This document shows, piece by piece, positions 1 to 48,877 of a stretch of 64,000 nt of DNA. The DNA comes from Mobula hypostoma. Taxonomy: Eukaryota. The DNA lies in NCBI RefSeq assembly GCF_963921235.1, contig NC_086108.1:10664001-10728000 (forward strand), read 5' to 3'. A program made the position numbers and the translations under genes. The notes below the pieces were generated by a model, which was given only the letters and a program-made list of their open reading frames with translations, had not been told where the DNA came from and made no database searches. The stretch's first letter is position 1, and each line of letters starts with the position of its first letter.

Positions 1-420
1 TAACCTTTGATGCCCTGACTAATCAAGAACCTATTAACCTTCACCTTAAATACACTCAATGATCTGGCTGCTACAGGCACCTGTGGCAACAAATTCCATA
101 GATTTATCACCCTCTGGCTAAAGAAATTCTTCCTCATCTCCGCTCTAAACTTACGTCCCTCTATTCTGTGGCTGTTCTCTCTGGTTCTGGACTTCACCAC
201 TATTGAAAATACCCTCCCCACGTCCACTTGATCTAAGCCTTTCAACATTTGATAGGTTTCAATCAGATTACCCCCTTCATTCTTCTAGACCCCAGTGAGC
301 CATTAGACTCCTCATACAATAAGTCCTTCCTTTTCAGAATCATTCTTGAGCTCTCTCCAATGTCAGCAAATCCTTTCTCAAATAAGGCTCCCAAAACTGC
401 TCCCGACAATCCCTTGCCAG
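1..420 (-). mobile_element. CR1 LINE 3' fragment (decayed)
   Basis: Reverse strand resembles the CR1 ORF2 C-terminus/3' end seen in better copies in this window (e.g. 57590-58070). Confidence 0.7.
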
Positions 421-497
421 CAGGGCACGGAGATGTGCCCTGAATACAAACTGCATGATTAAGCTCTTGAAAAGGAAATGGAGTTGTTTTGTTACAG

Positions 498-613
498 ACT
501 GTCACTTGGATCCCCAGCTCCAGAACAGAACTCCTGATGGAAGTTCTCAGCAATTATCAGAGAAGCCATCGACAGAACCTAGCCTGAGTACCAATGGGCA
601 TGGTATCAAATGA
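498..613 (+). CDS. Possible terminal coding exon of an upstream plus-strand gene: (x)CHLDPQLQNRTPDGSSQQLSEKPSTEPSLSTNGHGIK*
   Basis: Acceptor ttgttttgttacag| at 497, open phase-1 frame to TGA 611-613 in non-repetitive sequence; AATAAA at 3861. No homology recognised. Confidence 0.3.
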
Positions 614-1090
614 ATGGTTTTAGATTAGAGTCTAAGTGCAATTACAGGACTAAAAGCTATTTTTCAGCAAAGTAGCTGTGTCAGGGAACATTAATATGAT
701 ATATCAAAGCAATTCCCGACACCTTCAGTATCCCCACGTCTTAGATCTCTCTGTGTAGTACCCAGTAATTGTTTCAGTCCCCACATAGTATCTGTTGGAT
801 GTCAACATGACTTGGGTTTTAAAGCGTGCCTAGGATTCTGAAATTGCACTGGGAGAACTATTTTAAAAATGCATTCAGGAAGGCAGAGGAAGACAGGCCT
901 GATTATTTCTCAGAGGAGGAAGGCTCGAGGCTCACAGCGCATACTGTATACAGACTGTTGCTGGTAATACACTGAGCTGTTGTTCTCCCAGGTAACAAAC
1001 CCTCGGGTATCAGCTTCCCAGCTGATGCATGCCCTGGTGTCGATGCTTTCAAAGGCAACAGTCCCTCAGAAATCCATTTCCTCTGGAACA

Positions 1091-1250
1091 TGTCTGTTTC
1101 CCAGGTGATGGACACTAAAGTGACCGTGTCCAAGGTAACATCTCTCAGGTGTCTGTTTCCCAGGTGACTGACAGTCAGGTGACCGTATCCTGGGTAACAT
1201 CTCTCAGGGATTTGTAACTCAGGTTATGGACCCTCAGGTGACTCTGATCA
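1091..1250. repeat. About 59-bp degenerate tandem repeat (~2.7 copies)
   Basis: tgtctgtttcccaggtga...ggtaacatctctcagg at 1091 and 1150, decayed third copy. Confidence 0.6.
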
Positions 1251-1397
1251 TTGGGAATAGATAATGTCTTCCAGATCACTGCGAGGACACCCTAACCTTA
1301 CATCACAAGATCTGTAAGATCCAAGAAATTGCTGAGATCTTAATTCATACTTTGCTCTCTCAATCCACGATCCAGAGGCCTAGTAATGAATAGGAAA

Positions 1398-1915
1398 GGA
1401 TATGAGTTTGATGCTGTGGTGCTCGCCGAGCTTGGCGATTAGCTTGCAGACGTTTCATCTCCAGTCGAGGAGACATCCCCAGTGCACAGTTGTTGGTGTT
1501 TCAGTCTGGGAGTGCTCACATTTATATAGGCCCCCATTTGCTTGCCTCAGTACAGATTGGCTACCCCTCCGGTTGACCTTTGAATTCTATTGGCTCGCAT
1601 TTCTTTGGTCTTTAGGGATATGAGTGCTACGAGTGGATAAGTCGTGACTTATTTTGAGAACCTTCTTGAGCAACACACACAAGATGCTGGAGGAACTCAG
1701 CAGATCAGACAGCATCCATGGAAATGAATAAACAGTCGACGCTTCAGGTCTTGCGAAGCTCTTGCCATATGGGCGATGAAGTCAAATTCCTGGTCTGCGT
1801 TACCAATATTGAACTCCCAGCATGCTCCTGTACAATGGACCATGGGATTTTCCTCTGGATTTCCTGTTCTGCGTGTGGGAGTTTAACATCTTCACTTGAG
1901 TTTGTGGGAATGGGG
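1398..1915 (-). mobile_element. Penelope-like element remnant, interrupted by a second PLE fragment (~1672-1750)
   Basis: 1400-1620 closely matches the PLE end at 27150-27370; decayed hammerhead-like motif ~1445-1485. Confidence 0.6.
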
Positions 1916-2170
1916 AGAGTATGAAATCTTTAGAAAGCCACGTGGCATCAGGGAAGGCGTGGAGAAAATTTGTAGGAAACAGCTTGGATTAGAGAGCATG
2001 TTTCATGAGGAACTAATGAGCAAGCTAGATCTTTTCTCTTTGAAGCAAAGGAGGACGAGAGGTGACTTGAAAGTGGTGTACAAGATGATAAGAAGCACAG
2101 ATCAAATAGACAACCAGAGACTTTGCCCTAGGGGCAAATCATTCCAAAGAAATGGCAAATACCAGGGAGA

Positions 2171-2384
2171 CAACAGGAATTCTGCAGATGCTGGAAATTC
2201 AAGCAACACACATCAAAGTTGCTGGTGAATGCAGCAGGCCAGGCAGCATCTCTAGGAAGAGGTACATTCGACGTTTCAGGCTGAGACCCTTTGTCCTGAC
2301 GAAGGATCTCGGCCTGAAACATCGACTGTACCTCTTCCTAGAGATGCTGCTTGGCCTGCTGCGTTCACCAGCAACTTTGATGTG
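2171..2384. mobile_element. Palindromic non-autonomous PLE-derived mini-element inserted in an old CR1 fragment
   Basis: 14-bp TSD aaataccagggaga (2157-2170 / 2385-2398); inverted arms ~2209-2295 and ~2297-2384. Confidence 0.85.
2293..2326 (+). ncRNA. Minimal type I hammerhead ribozyme motif (slightly decayed)
   Basis: GUC-CUGACGA-AGGAUCUCGGCCU-GAAA-CAUC-GAC; stem I GUC/GAC. Confidence 0.55.
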
Positions 2385-2489
2385 AAATACCAGGGAGATT
2401 AATTTTAAGGTGTTCATAGAAAAGCACTGTACTTAGAGTATTGTGAGTAGTTCTGGGCCATTATATAAGAAACGTTGAACTGGCATGAG

Positions 2490-3140
2490 AACCATAGATC
2501 CATAGAACACTACAGCACAGAAAATAGGCCATTCAGCCCTTCTAGTCTGTGCCAAAACATTATTCCGCTAGTCCCATTGACCTGCATCCAGTCCATAAGC
2601 CTCCGGACCTCTCCTATCCATGTACCTATCCAATTTATTCTTGAAACTTAAGAGTGAGCCCACATTTACCACGTCAGATGGCAGCTCGTTCCACACTCCC
2701 ACCACTCTCTGAGTGAAGAAGTTCCCCCTAATGTTCCCCCTAAACCTTTCCCCTTTCACCCTAAAGCCATGTCCTCTCGTATTTATCTCTCCTAATCTAA
2801 GTGGAAAGAGCCTATTCACATTTACTCTGTCTATATCCCTCATAATTTTGTAAACCTCTATCAAATCTCCCCTCATTCTTCTCCGCTCCAAGGAATAAAG
2901 TCCTAACCTGTTCAATCTTTCCCTGTAACTCAACTCCTGAAGACCCAGCAACATCCTAGTAAATCTTCTCTGCACTCTTTCAATCTTACTGATATCCTTC
3001 CTATAATTAGGTGACCAGAACTGTACACAATACTCCAAATTTGGCCTCACCGATGTCTTAAACAACCTCCCCATAACGTCCCAACTCCTATACTCAATAC
3101 TTTGATTTATGAATGCCAGGGTGCCAAAAGCCTTCTTTAC
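2490..3140 (-). mobile_element. CR1 LINE 3' fragment
   Basis: ORF 2568-3074 VRPNLEYCVQFWSP...FFTQRVVGVWNELP is CR1 ORF2 C-terminus; (tctatgg)-type tail near 2490-2505. Confidence 0.9.
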
Positions 3141-4180
3141 AAAGAGATGGTCCAGAGGAGGCTCACAAAAATGAAAGCAGGAATGAAAAAGTTAATGTAT
3201 GAGGAGCGTTTGATGACTCTGGGACTGTATTCATTGCATTTTAGAAGAATCATGAAATGCCTAGATGGAGTAGATATGGAGAGGGCATTTCCTAATGGTC
3301 AAGTCCTAGATTCCCCCCACTCTAGGAAACTGTCTCTCAAAGTCCACTCTATCCAGGCCTTTCAATATTCAATATTGCTTTTGCCTAACATTACTTTTGC
3401 CTTTCTCGCCACTGACTCAACCTGCAATTTAACCTTTAGGGACTCCCAAGTCACACTATATGTGGAAAGTCTAATGTGCTGGAGAAGAACTTCAGCCCTA
3501 AGTTTCCCAAAAGCCTTCATCAGTGAGGGTTTCCTTTCCCCTAGGCTGGGGGCATTGTGGGCTAGTCATCATGATGCTTCCGAGATATTTTGTCCTCGTG
3601 TATTTGGAGAAGGTGCACTCCTTGCATCACCACTTCTCAGTGTCTGCAGCCCTTATCCCTCCCTGAACCAGGACAGAAACTGCTCAGAGTCATTAATATT
3701 TACCTCAAGCATACGTTGAGTCCGCCTGATAGGAGTTGACATTTCACTGTTCCTTGTGAGAAAGACTAATTCATTCTTCGTCCTCATGAAAACTTCAGCA
3801 TGTTTTTAAATCATTCATACTGCCTTCTCCAAGAGGCAGAATATTGGACTGTCAGAATTTAATAAATGTTTTGAAAGTTCTACATTAATCAGCAAGAGCC
3901 ATCATTACTTAGGGTCTGAAATAGTGCTTTGAAACTGATTCTTTTTTGGTCGGACGATATCCCAACAGTAATGAAGGTTCTGCTGATGAATTGGTTGGGC
4001 CATGTTTTCATTTTGTGCAGATTTCAACTTCCAAATTTCTGAATGATGGATAGTTGTATCGTCTTCAAGTTACATGTAACTTTGTGCCCTCTCAGAGACC
4101 ATGGACATGACGAACAGGTCTTTATGTCAAAGTTCATCTCTAGTTGGGTTGAATTGTTCTCCAGTCTTGGCAATTTACTA

Positions 4181-4220
4181 GCAAATGTTTCATCACCATA
4201 TGAGGAGACATCATCAGTGC
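4181..4220 (-). ncRNA. Minimal hammerhead motif of second PLE family
   Basis: Minus strand GCA-CUGAUGA-U-GUCUCC-UCAUAU-GGUGAU-GAAA-CAUU-UGC; mirror copy on + at 5053-5094. Confidence 0.55.
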
Positions 4221-4406
4221 GCTGTTAATTGTGCTATGTCCTCCAAATGCTTGGCCTTATCAATCGGCTGATTGATTATCATTACAGAAGCTCAGTTGTG
4301 ATGTGGGGAGGAAATCTCAATGCTGATTTGTTGTATGGTGAACTTATTGTGTTCTGGTCTGGAATTTTGCCCACATCGGCTCTTAAGTGGGATCGCAGTT
4401 TACATG

Positions 4407-33590: not shown

Positions 33591-34029
33591 TGAACTAGCA
33601 ATCCTACGAGCAGCTCTCTCGGAAAGTTTTCTTGGTCTTCCAGACCTCAATTTGACCTTCACTGTTTCTGTTAACTGCCATTTCTTAATTACATTACGAA
33701 CTGAGGAAACAGCTACCTGAAAACACCTTCCTATCTTCTTATAGCCTTCTCCTGCTTTGTGGGTATCATTTATTTTAATTTTCAGAGTGCTGGGCAGCTG
33801 CTTAGAGGAGCCCATGGCTGCTGATTGTTGGGACAAGGTTTGAGGAGTCAGGGTATTTATAATGCTTTGAAATTTGCATCACCTGGCCTTTCCTAACGAT
33901 GACTGTGAACAAGCCATAGCCCTAACAAGCTATTTAAGGTCTGAGACCTTGGTAAAAGTTATCTGAGATCTCAAATCTCTTTACGTGCCCAAACTTCTGC
34001 ATGATGCTCCTTTCCTTTTTTTCACCCTA

Positions 34030-34790
34030 ACTGTGTGTGTGCTTGTAGCTGTGTTTGTCTATGTGTGTGTGTTTGAGTGTGAGTGTCTGTGTGTGTATCT
34101 GTGTCTGAGCGCATGTGTGTGTGCTTGTCTTTGTGATTGGGTTTGTGTGTTTGTGTTTTTGTGTGGCTGTAAGTGTGTGTGTGTCTGTGCGTGTGTATGT
34201 GTGTGTGTTTGTATGTGTGTGTGAGTGTGTGTCTTTGTGAGTGTGGATATGTGTGTGAGTGTGTGTGTGTCTGTGTTTGTACATGTGTTTGTGAGTGTGG
34301 ATATGTGTGTGAGTGTGTGTGTGTCTGTGTTTGTACATGTGTTTGTGAGTGTGGATATGTGTGTGAGTGTGTGTGTGTCTGTGTTTGTACATGTGTTTGT
34401 GTCTGTTTGAGTGTGAAGATGTGTGTTTGAGTGCATGTGTATATGTTTGTGTTTGTGTGTGTTTGAGTGTGCATGTGTCTGTGTTTGTGTGTATATGTGT
34501 GTGTGAGTATGAGTGTCTGTGAGTGTGTATCTGTGTCTGTTTGAGTGCATGTATGTGTTTTGTTGTTTTTGTCTGGGCGTGAGTATGTGTGTTTGAGTGC
34601 AAGTGCCTTTGTGTGTGAGTGTGTGTGCATTTGTATGTGTGAGCGTGTGTGTGTGTATGTGAGTGTGTGTGTGTGTCTGTCTTTGTGCATGTGTGTGTTT
34701 GTGGTTGTAAGTGTATGTGTTGTGTTTGAGTGTGATCTGTGTGTGTGTCTGTCTTTGTGCATGTGTCTGTGTGTGTGTGTGTTTGTGGTT
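34030..34790. repeat. TG-rich compound microsatellite block
   Basis: Imperfect (TG)n sharing submotifs with 29330-30660. Confidence 0.9.
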
Positions 34791-36705
34791 GTGTGTGTGG
34801 TTGTGACTGTGTGTGTTTGTGTGTGCTAGTTTGTGAGTGTCTGTACTGTGCTGTAGGTTTTCTATGTTTCATTAGATGGGCCAAAGGTCCTGTTTTTGTG
34901 CATATGTGTGTGTGTGTGTTTGTGGTTGTGTGTGTGGTTGTGACTGTGTGTGTTTGTGTGTGCTAGTTTGTGAGTGTCTGTACTGTGCTGTAGGTTTTCT
35001 ATGTTTCATTAGATGGGCCAAAGGTCCTGTTTTTGTGCATATGTGTGTGTGTGTGTTTGTGGTTGTGTGTGTGGTTGTGACTGTGTGTGTTTGTGTGTGC
35101 TAGTTTGTGAGTGTCTGTACTGTGCTGTAGGTTTTCTATGTTTCATTAGATGGGCCAAAGGTCCTGTTTTTGTGCATATGTGTGTGTGTGTGTTTGTGGT
35201 TGTGTGTGTGGTTGTGACTGTGTGTGTTTGTGTGTGCTAGTTTGTGAGTGTCTGTACTGTGCTGTAGGTTTTCTATGTTTCATTAGATGGGCCAAAGGTC
35301 CTGTTTTTGTGCATATGTGTGTGTGTGTGTTTGTGGTTGTGTGTGTGGTTGTGACTGTGTGTGTTTGTGTGTGCTAGTTTGTGAGTGTCTGTACTGTGCT
35401 GTAGGTTTTCTATGTTTCATTAGATGGGCCAAAGGTCCTGTTTTTGTGCATGTGTGTGTGTGTGTGTGTGTTTGTGGTTGTGTGTGTGGTTGTGACTGTG
35501 TGTGTTTGTGTGTGCTAGTTTGTGAGTGTCTGTACTGTGCTGTAGGTTTTCTATGTTTCATTAGATGGGCCAAAGGTCCTGTTTTTGTGCATGTGTGTGT
35601 GTGTGTGTTTGTGGTTGTGTGTGTGGTTGTGACTGTGTGTGTTTGTGTGTGCTAGTTTGTGAGTGTCTGTACTGTGCTGTAGGTTTTCTATGTTTCATTA
35701 GATGGGCCAAAGGTCCTGTTTTTGTGCATATGTGTGTGTGTGTGTTTGTGGTTGTGTGTGTGGTTGTGACTGTGTGTGTTTGTGTGTGCTAGTTTGTGAG
35801 TGTCTGTACTGTGCTGTAGGTTTTCTATGTTTCATTAGATGGGCCAAAGGTCCTGTTTTTGTGCATATGTGTGTGTGTGTGTTTGTGGTTGTGTGTGTGG
35901 TTGTGACTGTGTGTGTTTGTGTGTGCTAGTTTGTGAGTGTCTGTACTGTGCTGTAGGTTTTCTATGTTTCATTAGATGGGCCAAAGGTCCTGTTTTTGTG
36001 CATGTGTGTGTGTGTGTGTGTGTTTGTGGTTGTGTGTGTGGTTGTGACTGTGTGTGTTTGTGTGTGCTAGTTTGTGAGTGTCTGTACTGTGCTGTAGGTT
36101 TTCTATGTTTCATTAGATGGGCCAAAGGTCCTGTTTTTGTGCATATGTGTGTGTGTGTGTTTGTGGTTGTGTGTGTGGTTGTGACTGTGTGTGTTTGTGT
36201 GTGCTAGTTTGTGAGTGTCTGTACTGTGCTGTAGGTTTTCTATGTTTCATTAGATGGGCCAAAGGTCCTGTTTTTGTGCATGTGTGTGTGTGTGTGTGTG
36301 TTTGTGGTTGTGTGTGTGGTTGTGACTGTGTGTGTTTGTGTGTGCTAGTTTGTGAGTGTCTGTACTGTGCTGTAGGTTTTCTATGTTTCATTAGATGGGC
36401 CAAAGGTCCTGTTTTTGTGCATGTGTGTGTGTGTGTGTGTGTGTTTGTGGTTGTGTGTGTGGTTGTGACTGTGTGTGTTTGTGTGTGCTAGTTTGTGAGT
36501 GTCTGTACTGTGCTGTAGGTTTTCTATGTTTCATTAGATGGGCCAAAGGTCCTGTTTTTGTGCATATGTGTGTGTGTGTGTTTGTGGTTGTGTGTGTGGT
36601 TGTGACTGTGTGTGTTTGTGTGTGCTAGTTTGTGAGTGTCTGTACTGTGCTGTAGGTTTTCTATGTTTCATTAGATGGGCCAAAGGTCCTGTTTTTGTGC
36701 ATATG
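34790..36705. repeat. 137-143-bp tandem array (14 copies) combining TG microsatellite and CR1-like 3' tail sequence
   Basis: attagatgggccaaagg recurs 14 times; periods 137,137,137,137,141,137,137,137,141,137,141,143,137. Confidence 0.95.
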
Positions 36706-37164: not shown

Positions 37165-38884
37165 CTGAAGGACAGAGCAGAGCAGACCAGGATACCAGCA
37201 TGCAGGAAATTCAACTGAGATTTATTGATAGCTCTGCTTGTACTGGATGTGAACTCCTCCCATATCGGGGTGGCTAACTGAGTGACAGAGGAACAGCACA
37301 GTCAACTACCATGAAAGGGTCCAGTGGTGGGGAGGGCATTTCTGTGTGTACATTCTCCCTGTTTAGCTCACCCAGGATTCAGGCTCACCCTCTCCCTGAG
37401 CTTCGCAATTACCCACAAGCAGACACATAAAATAAACTATTTCTGGCTTCGTTATCTGTCATCCTCCAGTAACGTAGACAATAAAATTAATCCTTTGCTT
37501 CAAAATAGATTTGTTTATTGTGACAAATTACAGAACCAGGTGTTCAAACCATCAAAAGGATTAGGGAGCTTTTATGAAATGTGTTCGGGGAAAGGTACTG
37601 CTGATAATTCCCGCTGCTGGTGGACGCTGATTCACTGAATTTAAACTGAGCTGTTTGATAAAAGGTTTGCTAAAAGCTGGTGATTATGCCATGCAAAGCT
37701 ACTCTTATGAGTCGTATGTGGTTCTATAAAGAATATTCAAATTTTAACGATCCTAATAACTCTGTACAAGTGGGATGTCAATGTCCCTTTTACTCAATGG
37801 ATCACTCGCAGGCTAGAATTTTATAGAGTCATAATCATTTTGTTTATTATAAGTGTTAGGGTGTATTCTGGAGTTATGGTATATAGCAAACATTAATTTC
37901 AGCAGCAACCAGTCTACAGATCTGAAAGTGGACTGTGGATTGAATTTAAAATGCAGTTCTGAACGACGATTCTCCTGAAGCTGCTGACTAGGGATGATTG
38001 CAAACCCTTTCAACAGAGATGTCTGCATAAGTATGAATGCATCTAGAGAGACAATGGTGATTAACATTCAAACAAGGGTGTCTGGAGTGTTGGTGTGAAG
38101 ATTTCTCCTCTGCTGAATAAATCTTCCTCTATTCTCCACTCTGACATTTCACTTCTTCACACCTGCCTATTACTTCCCCCAGGCTCCCGTCCTCTGTTAC
38201 AATACGCACCAGCCTTCTGAGGTTTAGTTGCCCCACCTCTCTGGAATATGGACAGCTGGTGCAGATGCTTTAAAGATTCAAGGCCGTCCCGCTAATTGGC
38301 AGCCATGTTTTGGCGCCAGGATTTTAATATTTAAAGAGCACCTGAACAATGTTTGGTGCTCAATCATCCATTCTACTTTGGATTCTCATCTTGCGTCATT
38401 TAGTCCCCTGCCCTCATTTCAGTCTCGACTCATCCTCCTTCTCTTTCTCCTATGGTTCACTTTCCTCTTCTCCAGCCCTTGACTTTTCTCACCTTCCAGC
38501 GAGGCTCCTCCCCCTCCCACCACTTTTTTATTCGGGCATCCTCCCCCTTCCTTCTCAGTCCTGATGAAGGGCCTCAGCCCGAAAGGTCAACTTTTCCATA
38601 GGTGCTGCCTGACCTGCTGAGTTCCTCCAGCATTTTAAGTGTATGTTGCTGAAAATTTAGGTGTTTGAAATTACATGTAACTTAAATGAAGCTCTGTCAA
38701 ACCAAAATATTGAAATAAATGATGTCATTGTAATTATTGGAACTATATAGAGTTACCATTCATCTTAAGGGTATAAAACTTTGATGTACTTTGAGTTCAG
38801 GGGCCTCTTTGTCCAAGAGTGTCTCCAGTATGATGCCTCCTGCTTGTTTTGCCGAATAAAGACTGATATACTTCTACTTACTTC

Positions 38885-39500
38885 GTAAAGAAAGCTTTTA
38901 ACACATTGGCCTTCATAAATATTGGATACAGGAGATGGGATGTTATGTTGAAGTTGTATAAGACATTGGTGAGGCCAAATTTGGAGTATTATGTGCAAAT
39001 TTGGTCACCTGTCCACAGGAAAGATGTAAGCAAGGTTGAAAGAGTGCAGAAAAAATTTACAAGGATTTTGCCGGAACTGGAAGACCAGAGTTATAAAGGA
39101 AGATTGAATAAGTTAGGATTTTATTTCTTAGAATGTAGAAGATTGAGAGATTTGATAGAGGTATACAAAATCATGAGGAATATAGATGAGGTAAATGCAA
39201 ACAGGCTTTTTCAACTGAGGTTGGGCAGGACTACAACTAGAGATCATGGTTAGAGGTGAAAGTGAAAAGTTTAAGGGGAACATGAGGGGAAAATTCTTCA
39301 CTCAGAGGGTTGTAAGAGTACGGAATGAGCTGCCAGCGCAAGTGGTGCATGTGAGCTCGATTTTAACATTCAAGAGAAGCTTGGATAGGTACGTGAGTGG
39401 TAGGGGTATGGAGGGCCATGATCCTGGTGCGGGTCGATGGGAGTAGGCAGTTTAAATGATCAGATGGGTGAAGGGCCTGTGTCTGTACTTTCCTGTGACT
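38885..39500 (+). mobile_element. CR1 LINE 3' fragment
   Basis: ORFs 38906-39253 and 39246-39446 (LYKTLVRPNLEY, FFTQRVV). Confidence 0.85.
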
Positions 39501-39859
39501 CTATACCCACCAGGGTCAGTGTCTCTCCAGTGACTTCCTTCACAGTTGCAACAATAAGGGGAGAATGCGGAGCAGGCAAAAGCAGTGGAAACCTTCCAGT
39601 ATCAACATGGAACACATTGACAGCAGGAGGGGAGGATTACCAGCAGCATGTTCCAGCTCCGTTTTCCTGTGTACTGGCAGTGCGCTTTGTGGCTCAGCAA
39701 GCCAGTCTGCCTGGCGCAGTGTGCACACATTCTGAGAGACTGTCACTCCCACGGTCTGGCGGCCCTGGCGGTCACCGTGAGACAGAGAGAGCTGCATGGT
39801 CAGACTCCCAGGATGGGGATCTTTGTTTCCTCATCAGAAGCAGGTTTTGCCGTGTACAC

Positions 39860-40365
39860 AGACACAGGAGGATCTGCAGATGCTAGAAATCCGGAGCCAG
39901 GCACACAAAATGTTGGAGGAACTCAGCAGGTCAGGCAGCTTCTATGGAAAAGAGTAAACTGTCAACCTTTTGAGCCAAGACCCTTTATCAGGACTGGAAA
40001 AGAGGGGGGAAGATGCTATAATTAGGTGGGTGGGGAAGGGGTAGGAGTACAAACGCGAAGGTGATAGGTGAAGCCTGGTGAGTGGGGAAGGGGAGATGAA
40101 GTAGGAGGCTGGGAGCAGATAGGTAGAAAGGGCTGGAGAGGAGACTGTACCGTAGGAGAAAGGGAAGGAGGAGGGGACCCAGGGGGAGGTGATAGACAGG
40201 TGAGAAGAGGTAAGAGGCCAGAGTGGGGAATTGAGGAGTAGGGAAGGGGGAGTTGGAAAAAAATTCTAAATTTGGAGAAATCTATGTTCATGCCATGAGG
40301 TTGGGGGCTACCTTGATAGAATATAGGGTGCTGCCCCTCCAATCTGAGAGTGGCCTCATCGTAGC
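39860..40365 (-). mobile_element. PLE 3' fragment with GIY-YIG C-terminus and decayed hammerhead (~39960-39995)
   Basis: ORF 40022-40480 contains DEATLRLEGQHPIFYQGSPQPHGMNIDFS; directly links the mini-element sequence to a PLE ORF. Confidence 0.75.
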
Positions 40366-41093
40366 AGGAGATGTACGGACATATCAGAAGATGATACACA
40401 AAACTATTGCTCGCTTTGTTATGGGCAGGGGTTATTTTTGTGGACAGAAGGCTATGTCGGTGTCGGTAGTGTGGCAACACCTGTGGGCTGCTCCTAGTAT
40501 ACCCTCAGACTGTGCTGATCTCTAATGCAAAAAGACACATTTCATTGCTTCAGTGTTTCAGCATACATGTGGTAAATAAATCGAATCGTTAATCTTGTCA
40601 GAGTGGTCTGGAGAGGGAGCTGCAGAGACAATGACCGGGAATAGGGATCCGTCTGTAAGAGAGCACGGTACGTGACTTGGAGGGGAACTTGCAGATGGTG
40701 GCTGTACCTTCCTCGCTGAGGTGTCGTAACATCAAGTGGACAGTCAGCCAAACTCCACTGAAAAATGACGGGAGTCAGGGTGTAGTCTCTGAGCTCCCTG
40801 GGTTTATTGCAGACTCAGTGACATGATATAGTGCATAAGGAGAGAAACTGAAAAACAACAAATACAGAGCAATTACCATGTTGTTCTATTCACACAAGGA
40901 AATATACACAGGTAAGTAGGAACTTCGTTATGTTTCCTGTAAGTAAATATTATAGTATTCTGACAGGTAAATACTATAGGTGAATGGTATGTAGAGACCA
41001 TTAGTGTATAGGTAAATGTCCAATAAACTCAAAAATAACATTTTATTTCAGCAAAACCTTATTGATATCTTTAGATTAACATCAACTTACAAG

Positions 41094-41844
41094 TGTGATG
41101 CCCTGGTTAAGGTTTCTGCTGCTATGCTGTAGGTATTTCATTTTAGCAGTTTTCTACAAAAGCAGTGTGTCCTGCAGAATGTTCTGATTTCAGCGGAAGA
41201 CAAGAAGCCTGTTGTTCAACTTTAGGAATGTTGTGTCAGCCAAGCAGGAGAGGTTCCTAGAGAGAATGGGGCAGATTGAGTTTTCTGAAGGGCAGTAGTC
41301 TGGTTTGGGGTCTTTTGGAGGGAGCCAGAGGGAAGGTATCTTCCACCATTGGAGAAAGAGTCCCCGTTGCAAGAAGGGCTTTGTGCAGATGAGTGGCTCC
41401 AAGAAGGAAGGACAATACTCCAGAGAGAGAGAGAGAGACAGATGGTTATAGAGGTGTTTTCGTGGGTCCAGCACGTGGGAAAGTACACCCCGAATACTCC
41501 AGCAGTTATGTTCACACTGGATTGGTTTCACTGTAATGGACCTTTCTCTTCTCTTTTCTTTTTCTTATTAGCTGCATGATAAAGCTGAAATATGCAAATA
41601 CACTTTCTTTATAATTTTATGCGATGTTATTTCTTGCTGACAGATAATTGTATATGGGCAGTATTTACACAGCATTTTTCAATCGAGATTCTGTTAATTG
41701 AAACATCCCAACTTTGCTGATTAATTGAATCCCAAATCATATTGACCCTAGATGCATATTGTTTATAAAAGTGGTCCTCTCACCGCTGAGTCATGTGGCT
41801 GTTAGCCGAGTTATTGAGCCAAGTTTGCATGTGAGAGGGTCACA
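41094..41844. mobile_element. Probable solo LTR
   Basis: Termini TGTGA...TCACA, imperfect 4-bp flanks caag/caat, no ORF. Confidence 0.5.
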
Positions 41845-42059
41845 CAATTAATGCTTCTGCTGGGGAAATAACAGGACGGCTTTAAATAGAAACTTCTTTA
41901 GCTCCTGGCATTAACCTCCAGCCTTCTGCCAGCCAATGTGCTTTTCTACTTCCTACTTCCTGACTGCAAAGGAAGTGATCTCATATAGATGTGAAACTGC
42001 TTATTTCAAAGTAAAAGTTGAATGTGCTTAATCACATAGTGAAAACTGCCCGAAGTTAT

Positions 42060-42525
42060 ATTCAGAGGGTGGAAGGTCTCATGCTACCCATTCGAAGTAA
42101 GCTGCCGTGGGTTCATTGTATTCCCTTTCCAGAAGTAGCTGCGTGACCTTGGCTTCACTAGAAGAGAGATCAAGTCAACCAGCAGGGCTGTAGCTGAGGC
42201 AGCAGAGAAAGGATCAGCATGGGTGTGGACCAAGTACGTCCAGAGGGGCAGATAGTCAGACAGTGTATCCATCTTTTGCAAATCCATCAGTAGGTGCATA
42301 GACACCTGAAGAGCAGACTATCTGTTGGATGGAAGCGACCAACAACTCTGATAGAGGCAGATGCTAAGTTTTTAAGCTCACCAGTGGGAGGTGGTGCTTT
42401 AGCACTGCTGGCCCACCACCTCGAGGGAGTCTTGATCATAAACGGGCCGAAACTCCTGAAGACAGGTGGCAGATCAACTGATGACCCCACTGGTGATAGC
42501 ACAGGACAGTTAACATCTTAGTCCA
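42060..42525 (+). mobile_element. Hero-clade non-LTR retrotransposon 3' end
   Basis: Frame from 42061: RGWKVSCYPFEVSCRGFIVFPFQK*LRDLG...AVAEAAEKGSAWVW, matching the EVGCRGF / EAAEKxSxWxW C-terminus of Hero-type elements. Confidence 0.7.
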
Positions 42526-42613
42526 TGTGTATTTTTAACCCCTGCACTAGATGCCTCTCTATCAGTGTCAGAGGTGGCAGGTTTTCAAGCAGTTGTTAGA
42601 TTATCACATAGAT

Positions 42614-43038
42614 CAGGGGTTCAAAGTTCAAAGTAAATTTTATTATCAAAGTACCTGTATATCACCATATACAACCCTGAGATTCATTTTCCTGAGGGCA
42701 AACTCAGCAAGTCTATAACAGGATCAATGAAAGATAACCAATCAGCCGAAGACAGCAAATTGTGCAAATGAAAATATAAATAAATAGCAATAAATAACAA
42801 GAACATGAGTTAATGAGATAAAGAGTCCTTAAAGTGAGATTATCGGTTGAGGGAACATCTCGATGGATGGGCAATTGAATGTAGTTATCCCCTTTTGATC
42901 AAGAGCCTGATGGTTGTGGGGTAGTAACTGTTCTTCAACCAGATGGTGCGAGTCCTGAAGCTGGGTGGGGTGGAGGGGGTTCCCATGGAGCCCTGCCATT
43001 AATTGAGAGCTCCGCGGAGTCCAGGTTGGGAACACCTG
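42614..43038. mobile_element. Short hAT MITE with nested Rex1 3' fragment
   Basis: Ends caggggtt / aacacctg; perfect 8-bp TSD acatagat (42606-42613 / 43039-43046). Confidence 0.75.
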
Positions 43039-44029
43039 ACATAGATTATTGAGATAGGTAGAAAGGGGAAGTGCAGGATTCCCTGAAGGTTAACTTGCAG
43101 TTTCAATCAGTGGTCAGGGGAAGGCAATTGTAATGTTAGCATTGATTTTCATTCCCAGTGGCCTGAGGGGATAGGGGTCTATCTGTAAGGTGGGAAAAAG
43201 AATGAAAAAAGTAAGGCAGCACCCATCATTATGGGTCCCCATCACCCAGGACATGCCCTCTTCTCTCTGCTACCATCAGGGAGGAGGTACAGGAGCCTGA
43301 AGACACACATTCAATGATTCAGGATCAGCTTAATCCCCTCTGCCATCAGATTTCTGAATGGACATTAAGACTAGCTCACTACTCTTTTTTGAGCTACATA
43401 TTTAATTTAACTATTTTAACTGTTATTCTCTGTTTTTGTTATTATATATTGCATTGTACTGTTGCTGCATAACAACCAATTTCACAACATATGCCGATGA
43501 CATTAAACCTGATTCTCATTCTCTCTCGATACTCGAGTTATTGTCACTTTATATTTCTGTTTGCCCTACCGCAGAAAGCTCTGCTGTACTTGGCACTGTT
43601 CTGCCGTCTTCTGCCTGTTGTATTTAACATCACCTTGAACACCGTTTATATCGTGAACTTCACGCCAGCAAGGGACTTCATTTCACCCTGGTGTGTACGG
43701 TAAGCTGATCTGAATCTGACGGTTGCGTGGTATCCACCTGTGGACAGTGACACAGCGTCCCCCTGGAGACGGTGACAAGTGTCCACTCGCAGAAGGTCAC
43801 TCAGTGCCCACCCAGGACAGTCACATGGCATCCGCCCACAGTGTCCACCTGCAGGTGGTCATGCAACCTCCAACAGTGGACATTGACACAGTTCGTGCCT
43901 GTCTCATCACTTCTTTCAGCCCACGACCAAGTGTGGGGTGTACCCAGTAACCTGTCCCCACTAACACCTAGCCATCCCTGATGAGCAGGTTAGTTACATT
44001 AGCCACAAATTAGAGGATGATGATTCGGT

Positions 44030-44400
44030 TAAGTGGTCCTCCGATCTTGGCAATTTATTTGCAAATGTTTCGTCACCATACGAGGAGGCATTGCCAGCAC
44101 GCTGTTGATTGCGGTGTGTCCTCTGAATGCTCGGCCTTTATATGCTCACCAATCAGCTGATTGGTTGTGGAGGGGAAATCTTGTTGCTGATTGGTTACAT
44201 GGCAAACTCTGCGTTGTGGTTCGGAATCTTGCCCGCGTCAGCTTATAAGTAGGACTGAGGTGTGCGTGTCTGTTTTCAGGATTGTTTGCGGAAAACCACG
44301 CTTCGAGGAATTCTCTTGCATGTGGCATGTTTGCTTGTGCCACGGCCTTCACCGCTGCCCAGTCGAATTTGTGCCCCTCTCGATCTTCATGGCTTCATCA
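44030..44400 (-). mobile_element. Penelope-like element 3' fragment
   Basis: AREFLEAWFS remnant; same family as 4120-5165. Confidence 0.7.
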
Positions 44401-45569
44401 GAGGCTGACATTTTAATTCCCATGTTCTAATTGTTGGAAACTACACTATCTCCACTGTTTGTGAGTAAAAACCCGTGTGTCTGCAACCTATTTGTTGTTG
44501 ATGGAGAAAGAGAGTGAAGTATATTTCCTGGTATTAAATGACCTTAAAAGCTCCTTGGCTTCAATGCAGTGCTTGTTGTAGTGTGCAGAAACTGATTGGA
44601 TTATAGTTGCATAACTCCTTCCACACCATCACTTACTATCTCCAGTCACCTCCAGCATACACACCAAGGAAGATTACTGACTACAGGCCTGGAGCTGATC
44701 TATCTCCAGCAAAGATCTTCTCTTCAAACATTCCTCTGATGTCAGGGGCTGCACTGAGGAAGTCTATCAGCATACATGGCAATCAGTCAATCCGGATCTC
44801 GAAAGAGCACAGATGTGCGTTAAAAGATTAAAGGCTATCTTTACTTGTAGCATGTGCATCAAGTCACGAGAGTCAACTGCGTCATTGATCAACACAGTGC
44901 GAGATGTGCTGGGGGCAGTCTGCAAGCGTGGCCAGGTTTAATGCACCAACGCAGTGTGACCTCAATTCACTAATACGAACAGTCTGCCTTTTTGGAATGT
45001 GGGAGGAAATTGGAGCACTCAGTGAACACAGGGAAACGATACAAACTCTGCAGGGACAGTGACGAGTTGAAGCCCAATCTCACAGCCAGTGCTGTAAAAG
45101 GCTACATTTACCATGCTCAGTGGAAGCTGTGTTTTTAGCTGGTGCAAAGGCTGTTCATCCAGATGCCCATTACAACCAGAGGTGCTGTCAAAGGTATTCA
45201 CGTTTCATCCTGTTGTCCAATGAGTTGAAGCTGATAAATAGAGGAGCAGAATTAGGCTATTCGGCCCATCAAGTCTGCTCCACCATTTCATCATGACAGA
45301 TCCATTTTCCCCCTCAGCCCCAATCTCCTGTCTTCTCCCCGTATCCCTTCATATCCTGACTAATCAAGAATCTACCAACCTTAAATATACCCAATGACTT
45401 GGTCTCCATGGCTGCATGTGGCAGTGAATTCCACAGATTCACCACTCTCTGCCGAAAGAAATTCCTCCTCATCTCTGTTCTAAATGAGTGTCCTCTATTC
45501 TAAGGCTGTGTCTTCTGGCCCTAAACTCTCCCACCATAGGAAACATCCTCTCCAGATACACTCCAACTT

Positions 45570-46219
45570 GCTTTCTTCTTGAAGATGTCCTGGTGAGGCT
45601 TGTGCCCATGATGGAGCTGACTGAGGTCATACCTTTTTCTGCAGCTTCTTTTGGTCCTGTGCAGTGGCCCCTCCACACCAGACAGTGATGCAGCCTGTTC
45701 GAATGCTCCCCATGGTGCATCTGTAGAAATTTGTAAGTGTCTTTGTTTATATATCAAATTTCCTCAAACTCTTAATGAAATATACTTCATTAGGAGTTTG
45801 CTGAGATTTGGTATGTCAACAAAAATATTCAACAATTTCTATAGATGTACCGTGGGGAGCATTCGAACAGGTTGCATCACTGTCTGGTGTGGAGGGGCCA
45901 CTGCACAGGACCGAAAGAAGCTGCAGAGGGTCATAAATTTAGTTGGCTCCATCTTGGGTACCAGCCTACAAAGTACGCAGGACATCTTTAAGGAGCACTG
46001 TCTCAGAAAGGCAGCGTCCATTATTAAGGACTCAGGACATGCCCTTTTCTCACTGTTACCATCAGGTAGGAGGTACAGAAGCCTGAAGGCACACACTCAG
46101 CGATTCAGGAACAGCTTCTTCCCCTCTGCCATCCGATTCTTAAATTGACATTGAACCTGCGAACACTACCTCACCTTTTTAATATATATTATTTCTGTTT
46201 TGCATGATTTTTAATCTAT

Positions 46220-47150: not shown

Positions 47151-47347
47151 AGACACGGCACCCATGGTCATTCAGCCAATGCAGCTATTCCCACCTTCAG
47201 CCTGACTCTCTGCACCCAGTTTCCTGCTGCATGTCCATGCGTCACTCAACAGTAAAATGTTCCACCCTTGTCCATTAGATCAACAAAACCAAAAAACTTT
47301 GGTGGAGAAAATCCCGAGCGTTTCACTGTCCCGTATGTGTATGAGTT

Positions 47348-48877
47348 AATAGTGGATGCATTAGTGATAATTTTTCAAAACTCGTTAGATTCTGGACTAG
47401 TTCCTGAGGATTGGAGGGTGGCTAATGTAACCCCACTTTTTAAAAAAGGAGGGAGAGAGAAACCGGGGAATTATAGACCAGTTAGCCTAACGTCGGTGGT
47501 GGGGAAACTGCTGGAGTCAGTTATCAAAGATGTGATAACAGCACATTTGGAAAGCAGTGAAATCATCGGACAAAGTCAGCATGGATTTGTGAAAGGAAAA
47601 TCATGTCTGACGAATCTCATAGAATTTTTTGAGGATGTAACCAGTAGAGTGGATAGGGGAGAACCAGTGGATGTGGTATATTTGGATTTTCAAAAGGCTT
47701 TTGACAAGGTCCCACACAGGAGATTAGTGTGCAAACTTAAAGCACACGGTATTGGGGGTAAGGTATTGGTGTGGGTGGAGAATTGGTTAGCAGACAGGAA
47801 GCAAAGAGTGGGAATAAACGGGACCTTTTCAGAATGGCAGGCGGTGACTAGTGGGGTACCGCAAGGCTCAGTGCTGGGACCCCAGTTGTTTACAATATAT
47901 ATTAATGACTTAGATGAGGGAATTAAATGCAGCATCTCCAAGTTTGCGGATGACACGAAGCTGGGTGGCAGTGTTAGCTGTGAGGAGGATGCTAAGAGGA
48001 TGCAGAGTGACTTGGATAGGTTGGGTGAGTGGGCAAATTCATGGCAGATGCAATTTAATGTGGATAAATGTGAAGTTATCCACTTTGGTGGCAAAAATAG
48101 GAAAACAGATTATTATCTGAATGGTGGCCGATTAGGAAAAGGGGAGGTGCAACGAGACCTGGGTGTCATTATACACCAGTCATTGAAAGTGGGCATGCAG
48201 GTACAGCAGGCGGTGAAAAAGGCGAATGGTATGCTGGCATTTATAGCGAGAGGATTTGAGTACAGGAGCAGGGAGGTACTACTGCAGTTGTACAAGGCCT
48301 TGGTGAGACCACACCTGGAGTATTGTGTGCAGTTTTGGTCCCCTAACCTGAGGAAAGACATCTTTGCCATAGAGGGAGTACAAAGAAAGTTCACCAGATT
48401 GATTCCTGGGATGGCAGGACTTTCATATGAAGAAAGACTGGATGAACTGGGCTTGTACTTGTTGGAATTTAGTAGATTGAGGGGGGATCTGATTGAAACG
48501 TATAAAATCCTAAAGGGATTGGACAGGCTAGATGCAGGAAGATTGTTCCCGATGTTGGGGAAGTTCAGAACAAGGGGTCACAGTTTGAGGATAGAGGGGA
48601 AGCCTTTTAGGACCGAGATTAGGAAAAACTTCTTCACACAGAGAGTGGTGAATCTGTGGAATTCTCTGCCACAGGAAACTGTTGAGGCCAGTTCATTGGC
48701 TATATTTAAGAGGGAGTTAGATATGGCCCTTGTGGCTACGGGGATCAGGGGGTATGGAGGGAAGGCTGGGGCGGGGTTCTGAGTTGGATGATCAGCCATG
48801 ATCATAATAAATGGCGGTGCAGGCTCGAAGGGCCGAATGGCCTACTCCTGCACCTATTTTCTATGTTTCTATGTTTC
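47348..48877 (+). mobile_element. Young 5'-truncated CR1 LINE with uninterrupted RT-to-C-terminus frame
   Basis: ORF 47268-48782 with YRPVSLTS, DFQKAFD, GVPQGSVLGP, FADD; (tttctatg)n tail; 8-bp TSD tatgagtt (47340-47347 / 48878-48885). Confidence 0.95.

What the first reader, a model, noticed from the sequence alone, without database searches (positions are those of the whole stretch)
42410..42490. Hero LINE 3' UTR holds hammerhead core segments in a non-canonical, pseudoknotted order
Seen: GGAG-U-C-UUGAUC (42426-42437), GGGCC-GAAA-CUCC (42444-42456), GAUCAA-CUGAUGA-CCCC (42472-42488). GGAGU/ACUCC forms stem III, GUC is the cleavage triplet, and UUGAUC/GAUCAA forms a perfect 6-bp stem I directly before CUGAUGA. 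An extra helix CCACCU (42416-42421)/AGGUGG (42464-42469) ties up the long linker. Established: hammerhead types I-III are circular permutations of one strand order (III-UH-I, I-CUGANGA-II, II-GAAA-III). Here the last two strands are swapped, which needs a pseudoknot or a dimer. Inference: stems I and II lie side by side in the folded ribozyme, so the 6-nt linker could bridge them; this may be an overlooked topology used in 3'-end processing or RT recognition. Stem II is weak in this copy, and I cannot confirm novelty.
Basis: partly seen in the sequence, partly recalled or inferred. Interest (0 to 1): 0.8.

Follow-up and report, generated by a model that had tools for sequence, protein, structure and literature searches.

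The report
Rewired hammerhead ribozyme in retrotransposon tail
The tail of a widespread family of jumping genes folds into the active site of a hammerhead self-cutting RNA, wired in an arrangement not found in the papers searched; if it cuts, it is a new ribozyme layout and a new step in how these elements copy themselves.

Summary
The motif lies in the 3' UTR of a 5'-truncated Hero-like non-LTR retrotransposon. The strand after CUGAUGA does not pair with the strand before GAAA: their first pair forms in 7 of 43. Stem II is instead made with an upstream strand (42410-14 with 42444-48), which restores the G10.1-C11.1 pair. The strand after CUGAUGA pairs further upstream, and a hairpin fills the gap exactly, giving a four-way junction with the backbone open between A9 and G10.1. 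This is a circular permutation of the type-SGC hammerhead (Eckert 2023) and lies outside that paper's six-order scheme. Variation follows catalytic rules: N7 is free, position 17 is G in only 1 of 43, and a sister family carries the compensatory U3-A8 core pair. Cleavage is untested. Genomic copies span the predicted cut intact, with no pile-up of copies starting there. Best reading: a slow or protein-gated self-nicking ribozyme (0.6). Main rival: a non-cutting docking fold for the reverse transcriptase (0.28).

The parts
42062..42538 (+). 5'-truncated copy (about 480 bp) of a Hero-like non-LTR retrotransposon family, full length about 3.6 kb
   Evidence: BLAST against 20 fetched copies starts at about 42062 and ends at about 42538; long copies align over 3.5-3.6 kb; 1483 first-look candidates in the genome
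42063..42255 (+). C-terminal end of the RT/restriction-like endonuclease ORF, with one in-frame stop in this copy; terminal TAG at 42253-42255
   Evidence: translation matches the end of P0001; the family profile hits R2 proteins in the PDB, E about 1e-5
42378..42389 (+). P1, 5' strand; pairs with 42485-42496
   Evidence: 11 of 12 pairs here, 12 of 12 with the family's T42485; pair probability about 1; covaries
42390..42409 (+). hairpin that exactly fills the gap between P1 and stem II; fourth arm of the junction
   Evidence: 8 of 8 pairs, three of them G-U; junction found in 32 of 43 relatives against 5% in shuffles
42410..42414 (+). stem II, 5' strand; G42410 is hammerhead G10.1
   Evidence: 5 of 5 pairs with 42444-48; held-out test in exact register in 27 of 32
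42416..42421 (+).
   Evidence: 6 of 6 pairs; 93% of cells paired, 6 of 6 pairs with two-sided changes
42425..42430 (+). stem III strand ending in U16.1
   Evidence: 6 of 6 pairs; 97% paired
42431..42431 (+). C17; predicted cleavage on its 3' side (not shown)
   Evidence: structural analogy; position 17 is C 17, A 15, U 10, G 1 of 43
42432..42437 (+). stem I, 5' strand
   Evidence: 6 of 6 pairs; covaries
42444..42448 (+). stem II, 3' strand; C42448 is C11.1
   Evidence: C in 40 of 43 relatives
42449..42457 (+). G12-A13-A14-A15.1 and the stem III partner strand
   Evidence: A15.1-U16.1 in 43 of 43
42464..42469 (+). P3, 3' strand
42472..42477 (+). stem I, 3' strand
42478..42484 (+). C3-U4-G5-A6-N7-G8-A9 core
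   Evidence: N7 is U 28, A 8, C 4, G 3 of 43; a sister family has U3 with A8
42485..42496 (+). P1, 3' strand, directly after A9 (not stem II)

Best explanation
The 3' UTR folds into a complete hammerhead active site whose strands come in the order: stem II 5' strand, interaction helix, S block, G block, C block. It is a type-SGC hammerhead opened between A9 and G10.1 and re-closed by a four-way junction made of P1, a hairpin, stem II and the core. SHOWN by comparison: the six helices, the junction geometry and the G10.1-C11.1 pair. INFERRED: it is catalytically competent and nicks the RNA after position 17, about 105 nt from the element's 3' end, slowly or only when the element's own protein is not bound. 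The two pieces would stay joined by about 28 base pairs (P1, II, P3, III), so the nick could re-seal. MOST LIKELY USE (inference): a gate on the template. Transcripts captured by the element's protein stay or become continuous and are copied. Free transcripts are nicked, lose the covalent link between ORF and tail, and decay. The same fold probably doubles as the docking site for the reverse transcriptase.
For: Stems I and III with the core letters parsed in 48 of 80 metagenome loci of the ORF's relatives, and in 40 of the 60 with at least 300 nt of 3' flank. A helix-only search using no core letters lands on the same GUH/GAAA/CUGANGA place in 39 of 54 parsed loci. Held-out test: with the junction located from P1 and the hairpin only (32 of 43; 5% in shuffles), stem II then pairs in exact register in 27 of 32 (2% when slid), with G-C at 10.1-11.1 in 27 of 32. 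On a plain MAFFT alignment of 23 relatives, 84% of cells pair and 35 of 38 pairs have two-sided changes; 0 of 500 shuffles reach that. The same scoring passes 25 of 43 relatives and 0 of 80 phage stretches that carry the same anchor letters. Variation matches catalytic rules: N7 free, G17 in 1 of 43. G17 slows natural hammerheads 8- to 100-fold (PMC3884650 passages). A sister family has fixed U3 with A8: 43 of 65 matches U3/A8, 20 C3/G8, 1 U3/G8, 1 A3/A8, none C3/A8, with the fold otherwise whole in L138 and L146. U3-A8 is the known active covariation of the C3-G8 core pair (PMC3088659, PMC4209133 passages). Type-SGC RNAs with the same helices cleave at 0.007-0.13 per min (PMC10085705).
Against: No cleavage assay. 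No validated hammerhead in what I read has the backbone broken between A9 and G10.1; Eckert et al. state that known alignments allow at most one or two inserted bases there. Genomic copies run through the site intact (606 matches across it). None of 27 copies truncated between 42432 and 42471 starts at the cut (the pattern captures about a third of such copies). RNA-like contigs of related organisms also span the site. The U3-A8 change is one evolutionary event, with a possible second sighting in decayed L124. CUGANGA and GAA were required by my first parser, so their invariance among the 43 is not independent. 14 of the 18 unparsed long loci that I read show no motif. Pseudoknot-free folding of this copy prefers a competing helix over the hairpin, stem II and P3.
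Confidence: 0.6

Rival explanations
1. The fold is a non-cutting docking structure for the element's reverse transcriptase, like the pseudoknot in the R2 3' UTR. It keeps hammerhead geometry because the protein reads that shape, but the broken A9-G10.1 link disables chemistry.
For: Position at the 3' end of an R2-related element; R2Tg binds a pseudoknotted 3' UTR element to start reverse transcription (PMC12222951 abstract and passages). Copies are intact across the site and none starts at it. Two earlier unchecked notes on this genome took this view.
Against: The conflict those notes cite is resolved by the upstream stem II strand, which restores G10.1-C11.1. If cutting were unwanted, simple inactivating changes such as G17 should have fixed in some of 43 lineages; G17 appears once, in a copy that also lacks C11.1. 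The one family-level core change seen is the activity-preserving U3-A8.
Confidence: 0.28
2. One reading: an ordinary type-SGC hammerhead, as monomer or dimer, with stem II formed by the strand after CUGAUGA, perhaps as an alternative state that competes with P1.
For: The strand order S-G-C is present, and type SGC is a proven active topology. In a few families a G after A9 could pair with C11.1 (7 of 43).
Against: The in-register first pair forms in 7 of 43 (shuffle mean 8.3) and none of the first four positions beats its shuffle. 47% paired, 442 of 500 shuffles as high. That strand is held in P1 with probability near 1.
Confidence: 0.05
3. The core letters form some other conserved module, for example a box C/D-like kink-turn of tandem G-A pairs or a protein-binding loop, and the hammerhead likeness is coincidence.
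For: CUGAUGA resembles box C and GA steps form kink-turns (recalled, no call).
Against: Free N7, U-H at the stem I/III joint, G10.1-C11.1 and U3-A8 together are specific to the hammerhead core. No Rfam family matched at this place at E up to 10.
Confidence: 0.04

Closest known systems
Type-SGC non-circularly permuted hammerhead ribozymes (HRIMA-1 and variants; Eckert et al. 2023, PMC10085705)
   Same: S, G, C blocks in that order; short linker from stem I to stem II; an interaction helix whose one strand follows the stem II strand after one base and whose other strand precedes stem I (SGC-1/2 oligos); full core consensus.
   Different: In SGC the stem II strand follows CUGANGA directly or after one U. 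Here that strand and the interaction strand sit at the 5' side, the backbone is open between A9 and G10.1, and P1 plus a hairpin close a four-way junction. SGC was found in metatranscriptome contigs and none in genomes of known organisms. The published search patterns required CUGAUGA(U)G followed by stem II and would miss this form.
Hammerheads of Penelope-like elements and retrozymes (PMC4209133; review PMC6155905)
   Same: Hammerhead core carried by a eukaryotic retroelement; the U3-A8 variant is also seen there.
   Different: Those are type I or III circular permutations in terminal repeats, often needing dimers. This one is single, multiply pseudoknotted, and in the 3' UTR of a restriction-like-endonuclease LINE.
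R2 element RNA structures: 5' HDV-like ribozyme and 3' UTR pseudoknot (PMC12222951)
   Same: Related protein architecture; a structured, pseudoknotted 3' UTR next to the start of reverse transcription.
   Different: R2's ribozyme is HDV-like and at the 5' end. Its 3' element is described as two helices with a pseudoknot; no catalytic core is mentioned in the passages read.

Membership tests
Hammerhead ribozyme | CUGANGA, GAAA and UH core letters | tested here: met
   N7 free, position 17 not G in 42 of 43, A15.1-U16.1 in 43 of 43; helix-only search finds the same place in 39 of 54
Hammerhead ribozyme | Stems I and III flanking position 17, with covariation | tested here: met
   90% and 97% of cells paired; 6 of 6 and 5 of 6 pairs with two-sided changes
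Hammerhead ribozyme | Stem II closing on G12 with a G10.1-C11.1 pair | tested here: met
   formed with an upstream strand: 27 of 32 in register in the held-out test; 92% paired
Hammerhead ribozyme | A9 joined to the stem II strand directly or through 1-2 bases (block C of Eckert et al.) | tested here: not met
   A9 continues into P1
Hammerhead ribozyme | C3-G8 tertiary pair | tested here: met
   compensatory U3-A8 fixed in a sister family, 43 of 65 matches, no C3/A8; one event only
Hammerhead ribozyme | Site-specific self-cleavage after position 17 | not testable with these tools
   no raw RNA reads were offered; genomic copies show no trace of a cut
Type-SGC hammerhead (Eckert 2023) | Order S-G-C with a short stem I-stem II linker and an interaction helix | tested here: met
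   compared
Type-SGC hammerhead (Eckert 2023) | Stem II 5' strand 3' of CUGANGA | tested here: not met
   so it works like SGC but is not a member
Hero clade of non-LTR retrotransposons | Single ORF with RT, zinc knuckle and C-terminal restriction-like endonuclease | tested here: met
   weak RVT_1 and zf-RVT hits below their cut-offs; PD..E..K and CCHC columns in alignment A1; R2 proteins as PDB hits
Hero clade of non-LTR retrotransposons | RT groups with named Hero elements | tested here: inconclusive
   by eye only, P0002 is about half identical over some 150 residues to HERO-1_BF as printed in the supplement of PMC7650587, and unlike the R4 row beside it; no tree with named references was built

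The most novel reading that the evidence does not exclude
Hero-type LINEs across deeply diverged lineages carry in their 3' UTR an active hammerhead ribozyme of a seventh topology: non-circularly permuted, split at A9/G10.1 and assembled through a four-way junction. It nicks, and may re-seal, the retrotransposition template near its 3' end as part of the element's life cycle. That would place more than a thousand copies of a multiply pseudoknotted ribozyme in this one genome and put a non-circular hammerhead in chromosomal DNA.
Probability: 0.55. Interest if true: 0.9.

Novelty: new variant of a known kind. Interest (0 to 1): 0.8.

Why it matters
It breaks the assumption behind the current catalogue of hammerhead permutations, that CUGANGA and its stem II strand cannot be separated. 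Descriptor searches built on that assumption miss a large natural class. It would place a non-circularly permuted hammerhead in chromosomal retroelements and a ribozyme at the 3' end of an R2-related LINE, where a cut should be fatal to copying. How the element avoids, uses or reverses that cut is a directly testable question about template choice and 3'-end handling in target-primed reverse transcription. Even if it does not cut, it defines the likely RNA handle of Hero proteins.

Tried and rejected
Rfam scan of 38000-46000 at E up to 10: 10 matches, none at the motif. MAFFT on all 44 sequences misaligned the 5' half, so the pair counts used 23 of similar length chosen by me. Because I derived the structure from these sequences, the slid controls are biased in its favour. 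ORF search in viral contigs: no relative. Sequencing runs: no holder on record as RNA, only contigs. In three RNA-guess runs (two studies) the summed contig depth is much higher 3' of about 42441 than just 5' of it: 177 to 4241 in X2, 55 to 547 in X7, little step in X1, and none in the large run X19. The tool states that contig depth cannot rank parts of a gene, the step lies 10-30 nt past the predicted cut, and contigs span the site, so I count it neither way. A variant seen in those runs (changes at 42444, 42448 and N7) was not found in this genome, and its pairing partners were not displayed. 5' truncation at the cut: none of 27 (10 further matches of the 37 were indel copies, set aside by eye). 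The protein tree is the quick one: the motif is spread over it and absences cluster, but I draw no order of events. ARAGORN found no tRNA in 13 loci. PMC2632901 passages held nothing on the A9/G10.1 site. Three papers were not held: two ids were recalled, meant for a survey of site-specific retrotransposons and the full-length hammerhead structure, and one was a hammerhead review from a reference list. They may bear on novelty and mechanism. No covariance model and no R-scape-type phylogenetic test were run. Repbase and Dfam are not available.

Full report
OBSERVATION. Stem III, stem I and the extra helix each pair 6 of 6. The anchor pattern occurs once in the window against 0.01 expected, and 1157 times in the 3.48-Gb genome against 135 for the reversed control. 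The proposed stem II fails. In register its first two pairs are C.C, and the C at 42485 is private to this copy (T in 44 of 45 other copies).

CONTEXT. The motif lies in the 3' UTR (42256 to about 42538) of a 5'-truncated copy, about 480 bp of a 3.6-kb element. The ORF has RT, zinc-knuckle and restriction-like endonuclease features, and its profile hits R2 proteins in the PDB. By eye its RT end is about half identical to HERO-1_BF as printed in the supplement of PMC7650587. 'Hero' is therefore well supported but was not tested by a tree with named references. Named protein relatives come from amphioxus, a brittle star, sea slugs and a fish; their UTRs were not examined.

RELATIVES. I fetched 80 metagenome loci (the best 80 of 557 confirmed) through the protein alone, and 16 copies of other families from this genome. 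A parser that required CUGANGA, GAA and two pairs each of stems I and III succeeded in 54 of 98 3' regions: 48 of the 80 metagenome loci, and 40 of the 60 with at least 300 nt of flank. Of the 20 long failures I read 18. Four carry the motif with core changes (L081, L089, L115, L124) and 14 show none. Clustering at 80% left 44 sequences; one lacking 3' flank was dropped, leaving 43.

THE REAL TOPOLOGY. The strand before GAAA pairs with an upstream strand, at least 5 bp in 37 of 43 (26% in shuffles). The strand after CUGANGA pairs further upstream (P1), at least 7 bp in 29 of 43 (15%). A hairpin fills the space between P1 and stem II exactly. As a held-out test I located the junction from P1 and the hairpin alone (32 of 43; 5% in shuffles). 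The next bases then pair with the strand before GAAA in exact register in 27 of 32, against 2% when slid, and the first pair is G-C in 27 of 32. That pair is hammerhead G10.1-C11.1. On an unfitted MAFFT alignment of 23 of the sequences, the six helices pair in 84% of cells and 35 of 38 pairs show two-sided changes, with 0 of 500 shuffles as high. A search on helices alone lands on the core letters in 39 of 54. The combined score passes 25 of 43 relatives and 0 of 80 phage stretches carrying the same anchors. The order is: P1 5', hairpin, stem II 5', P3 5', stem III, H17, stem I 5', stem II 3', GAAA, stem III, P3 3', stem I 3', CUGANGA, P1 3'.

COMPARISON. Eckert et al. 2023 (PMC10085705; I read main-text parts 1 and 3-6 of 8 and supplement parts 1 and 8 of 42) define blocks S, G and C and six possible orders. 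They show that type SGC cleaves at 0.007-0.13 per min, and found it in metatranscriptomes, not in genomes of known organisms. In their SGC-1/2 constructs the stem II strand and the interaction strand follow CUGAUGA. Here those two strands, with the same one-base spacing, stand at the 5' side. The RNA is thus a circular permutation of SGC opened between A9 and G10.1. This breaks their stated assumption that block C is indivisible and escapes their search patterns. That a single extra base is tolerated at this site is seen in their SGC constructs. The related viroid work I know by title only (reference list) and by recall.

IS IT CATALYTIC? For: N7 varies freely (U 28, A 8, C 4, G 3), position 17 avoids G (1 of 43), and A15.1-U16.1 is kept in 43 of 43. 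G17 slows natural hammerheads 8- to 100-fold (PMC3884650, passages). G12 and the 2'-OH of G8 are the proposed general base and acid (PMC6155905, passages). A sister family in this genome has fixed U3 together with A8 (43 of 65 matches; 20 are C3/G8 from a neighbouring family; no C3/A8) while keeping stems I, II, III and the hairpin in L138 and L146. This is the known activity-preserving swap of the C3-G8 pair (PMC3088659 and PMC4209133, passages). It is one event, with a possible second sighting in L124. Against: no assay; the break at A9/G10.1 has no precedent in what I read; 606 genomic matches span the site; none of 27 copies truncated in the next 40 nt starts at the cut, which bounds such copies at roughly ten or fewer among more than a thousand; and pseudoknot-free folding of this copy favours a competing helix. 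The templates that were copied were therefore uncut, re-sealed, or read through without a scar.

MECHANISM. Shown: the fold and the junction. Inferred: a competent but slow or protein-gated ribozyme that nicks about 105 nt from the 3' end. The halves would stay paired by about 28 bp, so re-ligation is plausible; natural tertiary-stabilised hammerheads reach a cleavage-ligation equilibrium. The most likely use is to discard transcripts not captured by the element's own protein, while the same fold serves as the docking site (0.6 for catalytic competence with such a role). The main rival is a purely structural docking site like the R2 3' UTR pseudoknot (PMC12222951, abstract and passages), at 0.28. 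Two earlier unchecked notes on this genome preferred that rival because P1 holds the strand after CUGAUGA. I confirm the P1 helix, but the conflict disappears once the upstream stem II strand is seen.

NOVELTY. Ten full-text searches listed no paper joining Hero elements with a hammerhead. 'type-SGC' occurred only in Eckert et al.. Most listed papers were seen as search listings only. Rfam 15 has no match here. Subscription journals, Repbase notes and unseen supplements may hold it. Verdict: a real, deeply conserved RNA structure; a new variant of the hammerhead kind; cleavage likely but unproven. Interest 0.8.

Noticed in passing
L068, L096, L106 (3' UTR, about 65-125 nt upstream of the predicted cut): One clade carries a B-box-like motif (3 of 43), in two cases with an A-box-like motif, just upstream of the fold. 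This hints at an internal polymerase III promoter that could transcribe the tail alone. ARAGORN calls no tRNA.
   Followed up: partly
L051, L052, L059, L065: In this group a G directly after A9 can pair with C11.1, and the junction sits one base pair further out: a possible intermediate between plain SGC and the split form.
   Followed up: no
L131-L146 (G000): At least three further Hero-like families exist in this genome, each with its own version of the fold. Two sister families differ by a compensatory U-A/C-G swap in stem II as well as the C3-G8/U3-A8 swap.
   Followed up: partly
L168, L169, L182, L190, L191, L192, L211: Seven phage-contig stretches look like canonical type II hammerheads.
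   Followed up: no
window 45661-45904: Long inverted repeat (about 60-bp arms) that scores below threshold against several microRNA models; probably an inverted piece of a LINE copy.
   Followed up: no
window 47256-48782: Open 508-codon frame of a reverse transcriptase that looks CR1/L2-like (label recalled).
   Followed up: no
window 34000-36500: Long TG-rich tandem repeat with strong strand skew.
   Followed up: no
3' ends of L001-L020: Family copies end in variable short repeats after a T-run, some CAAT-like and some AACT-like, and an ACATC motif lies near the end in 12 of 43 relatives.
   Followed up: no
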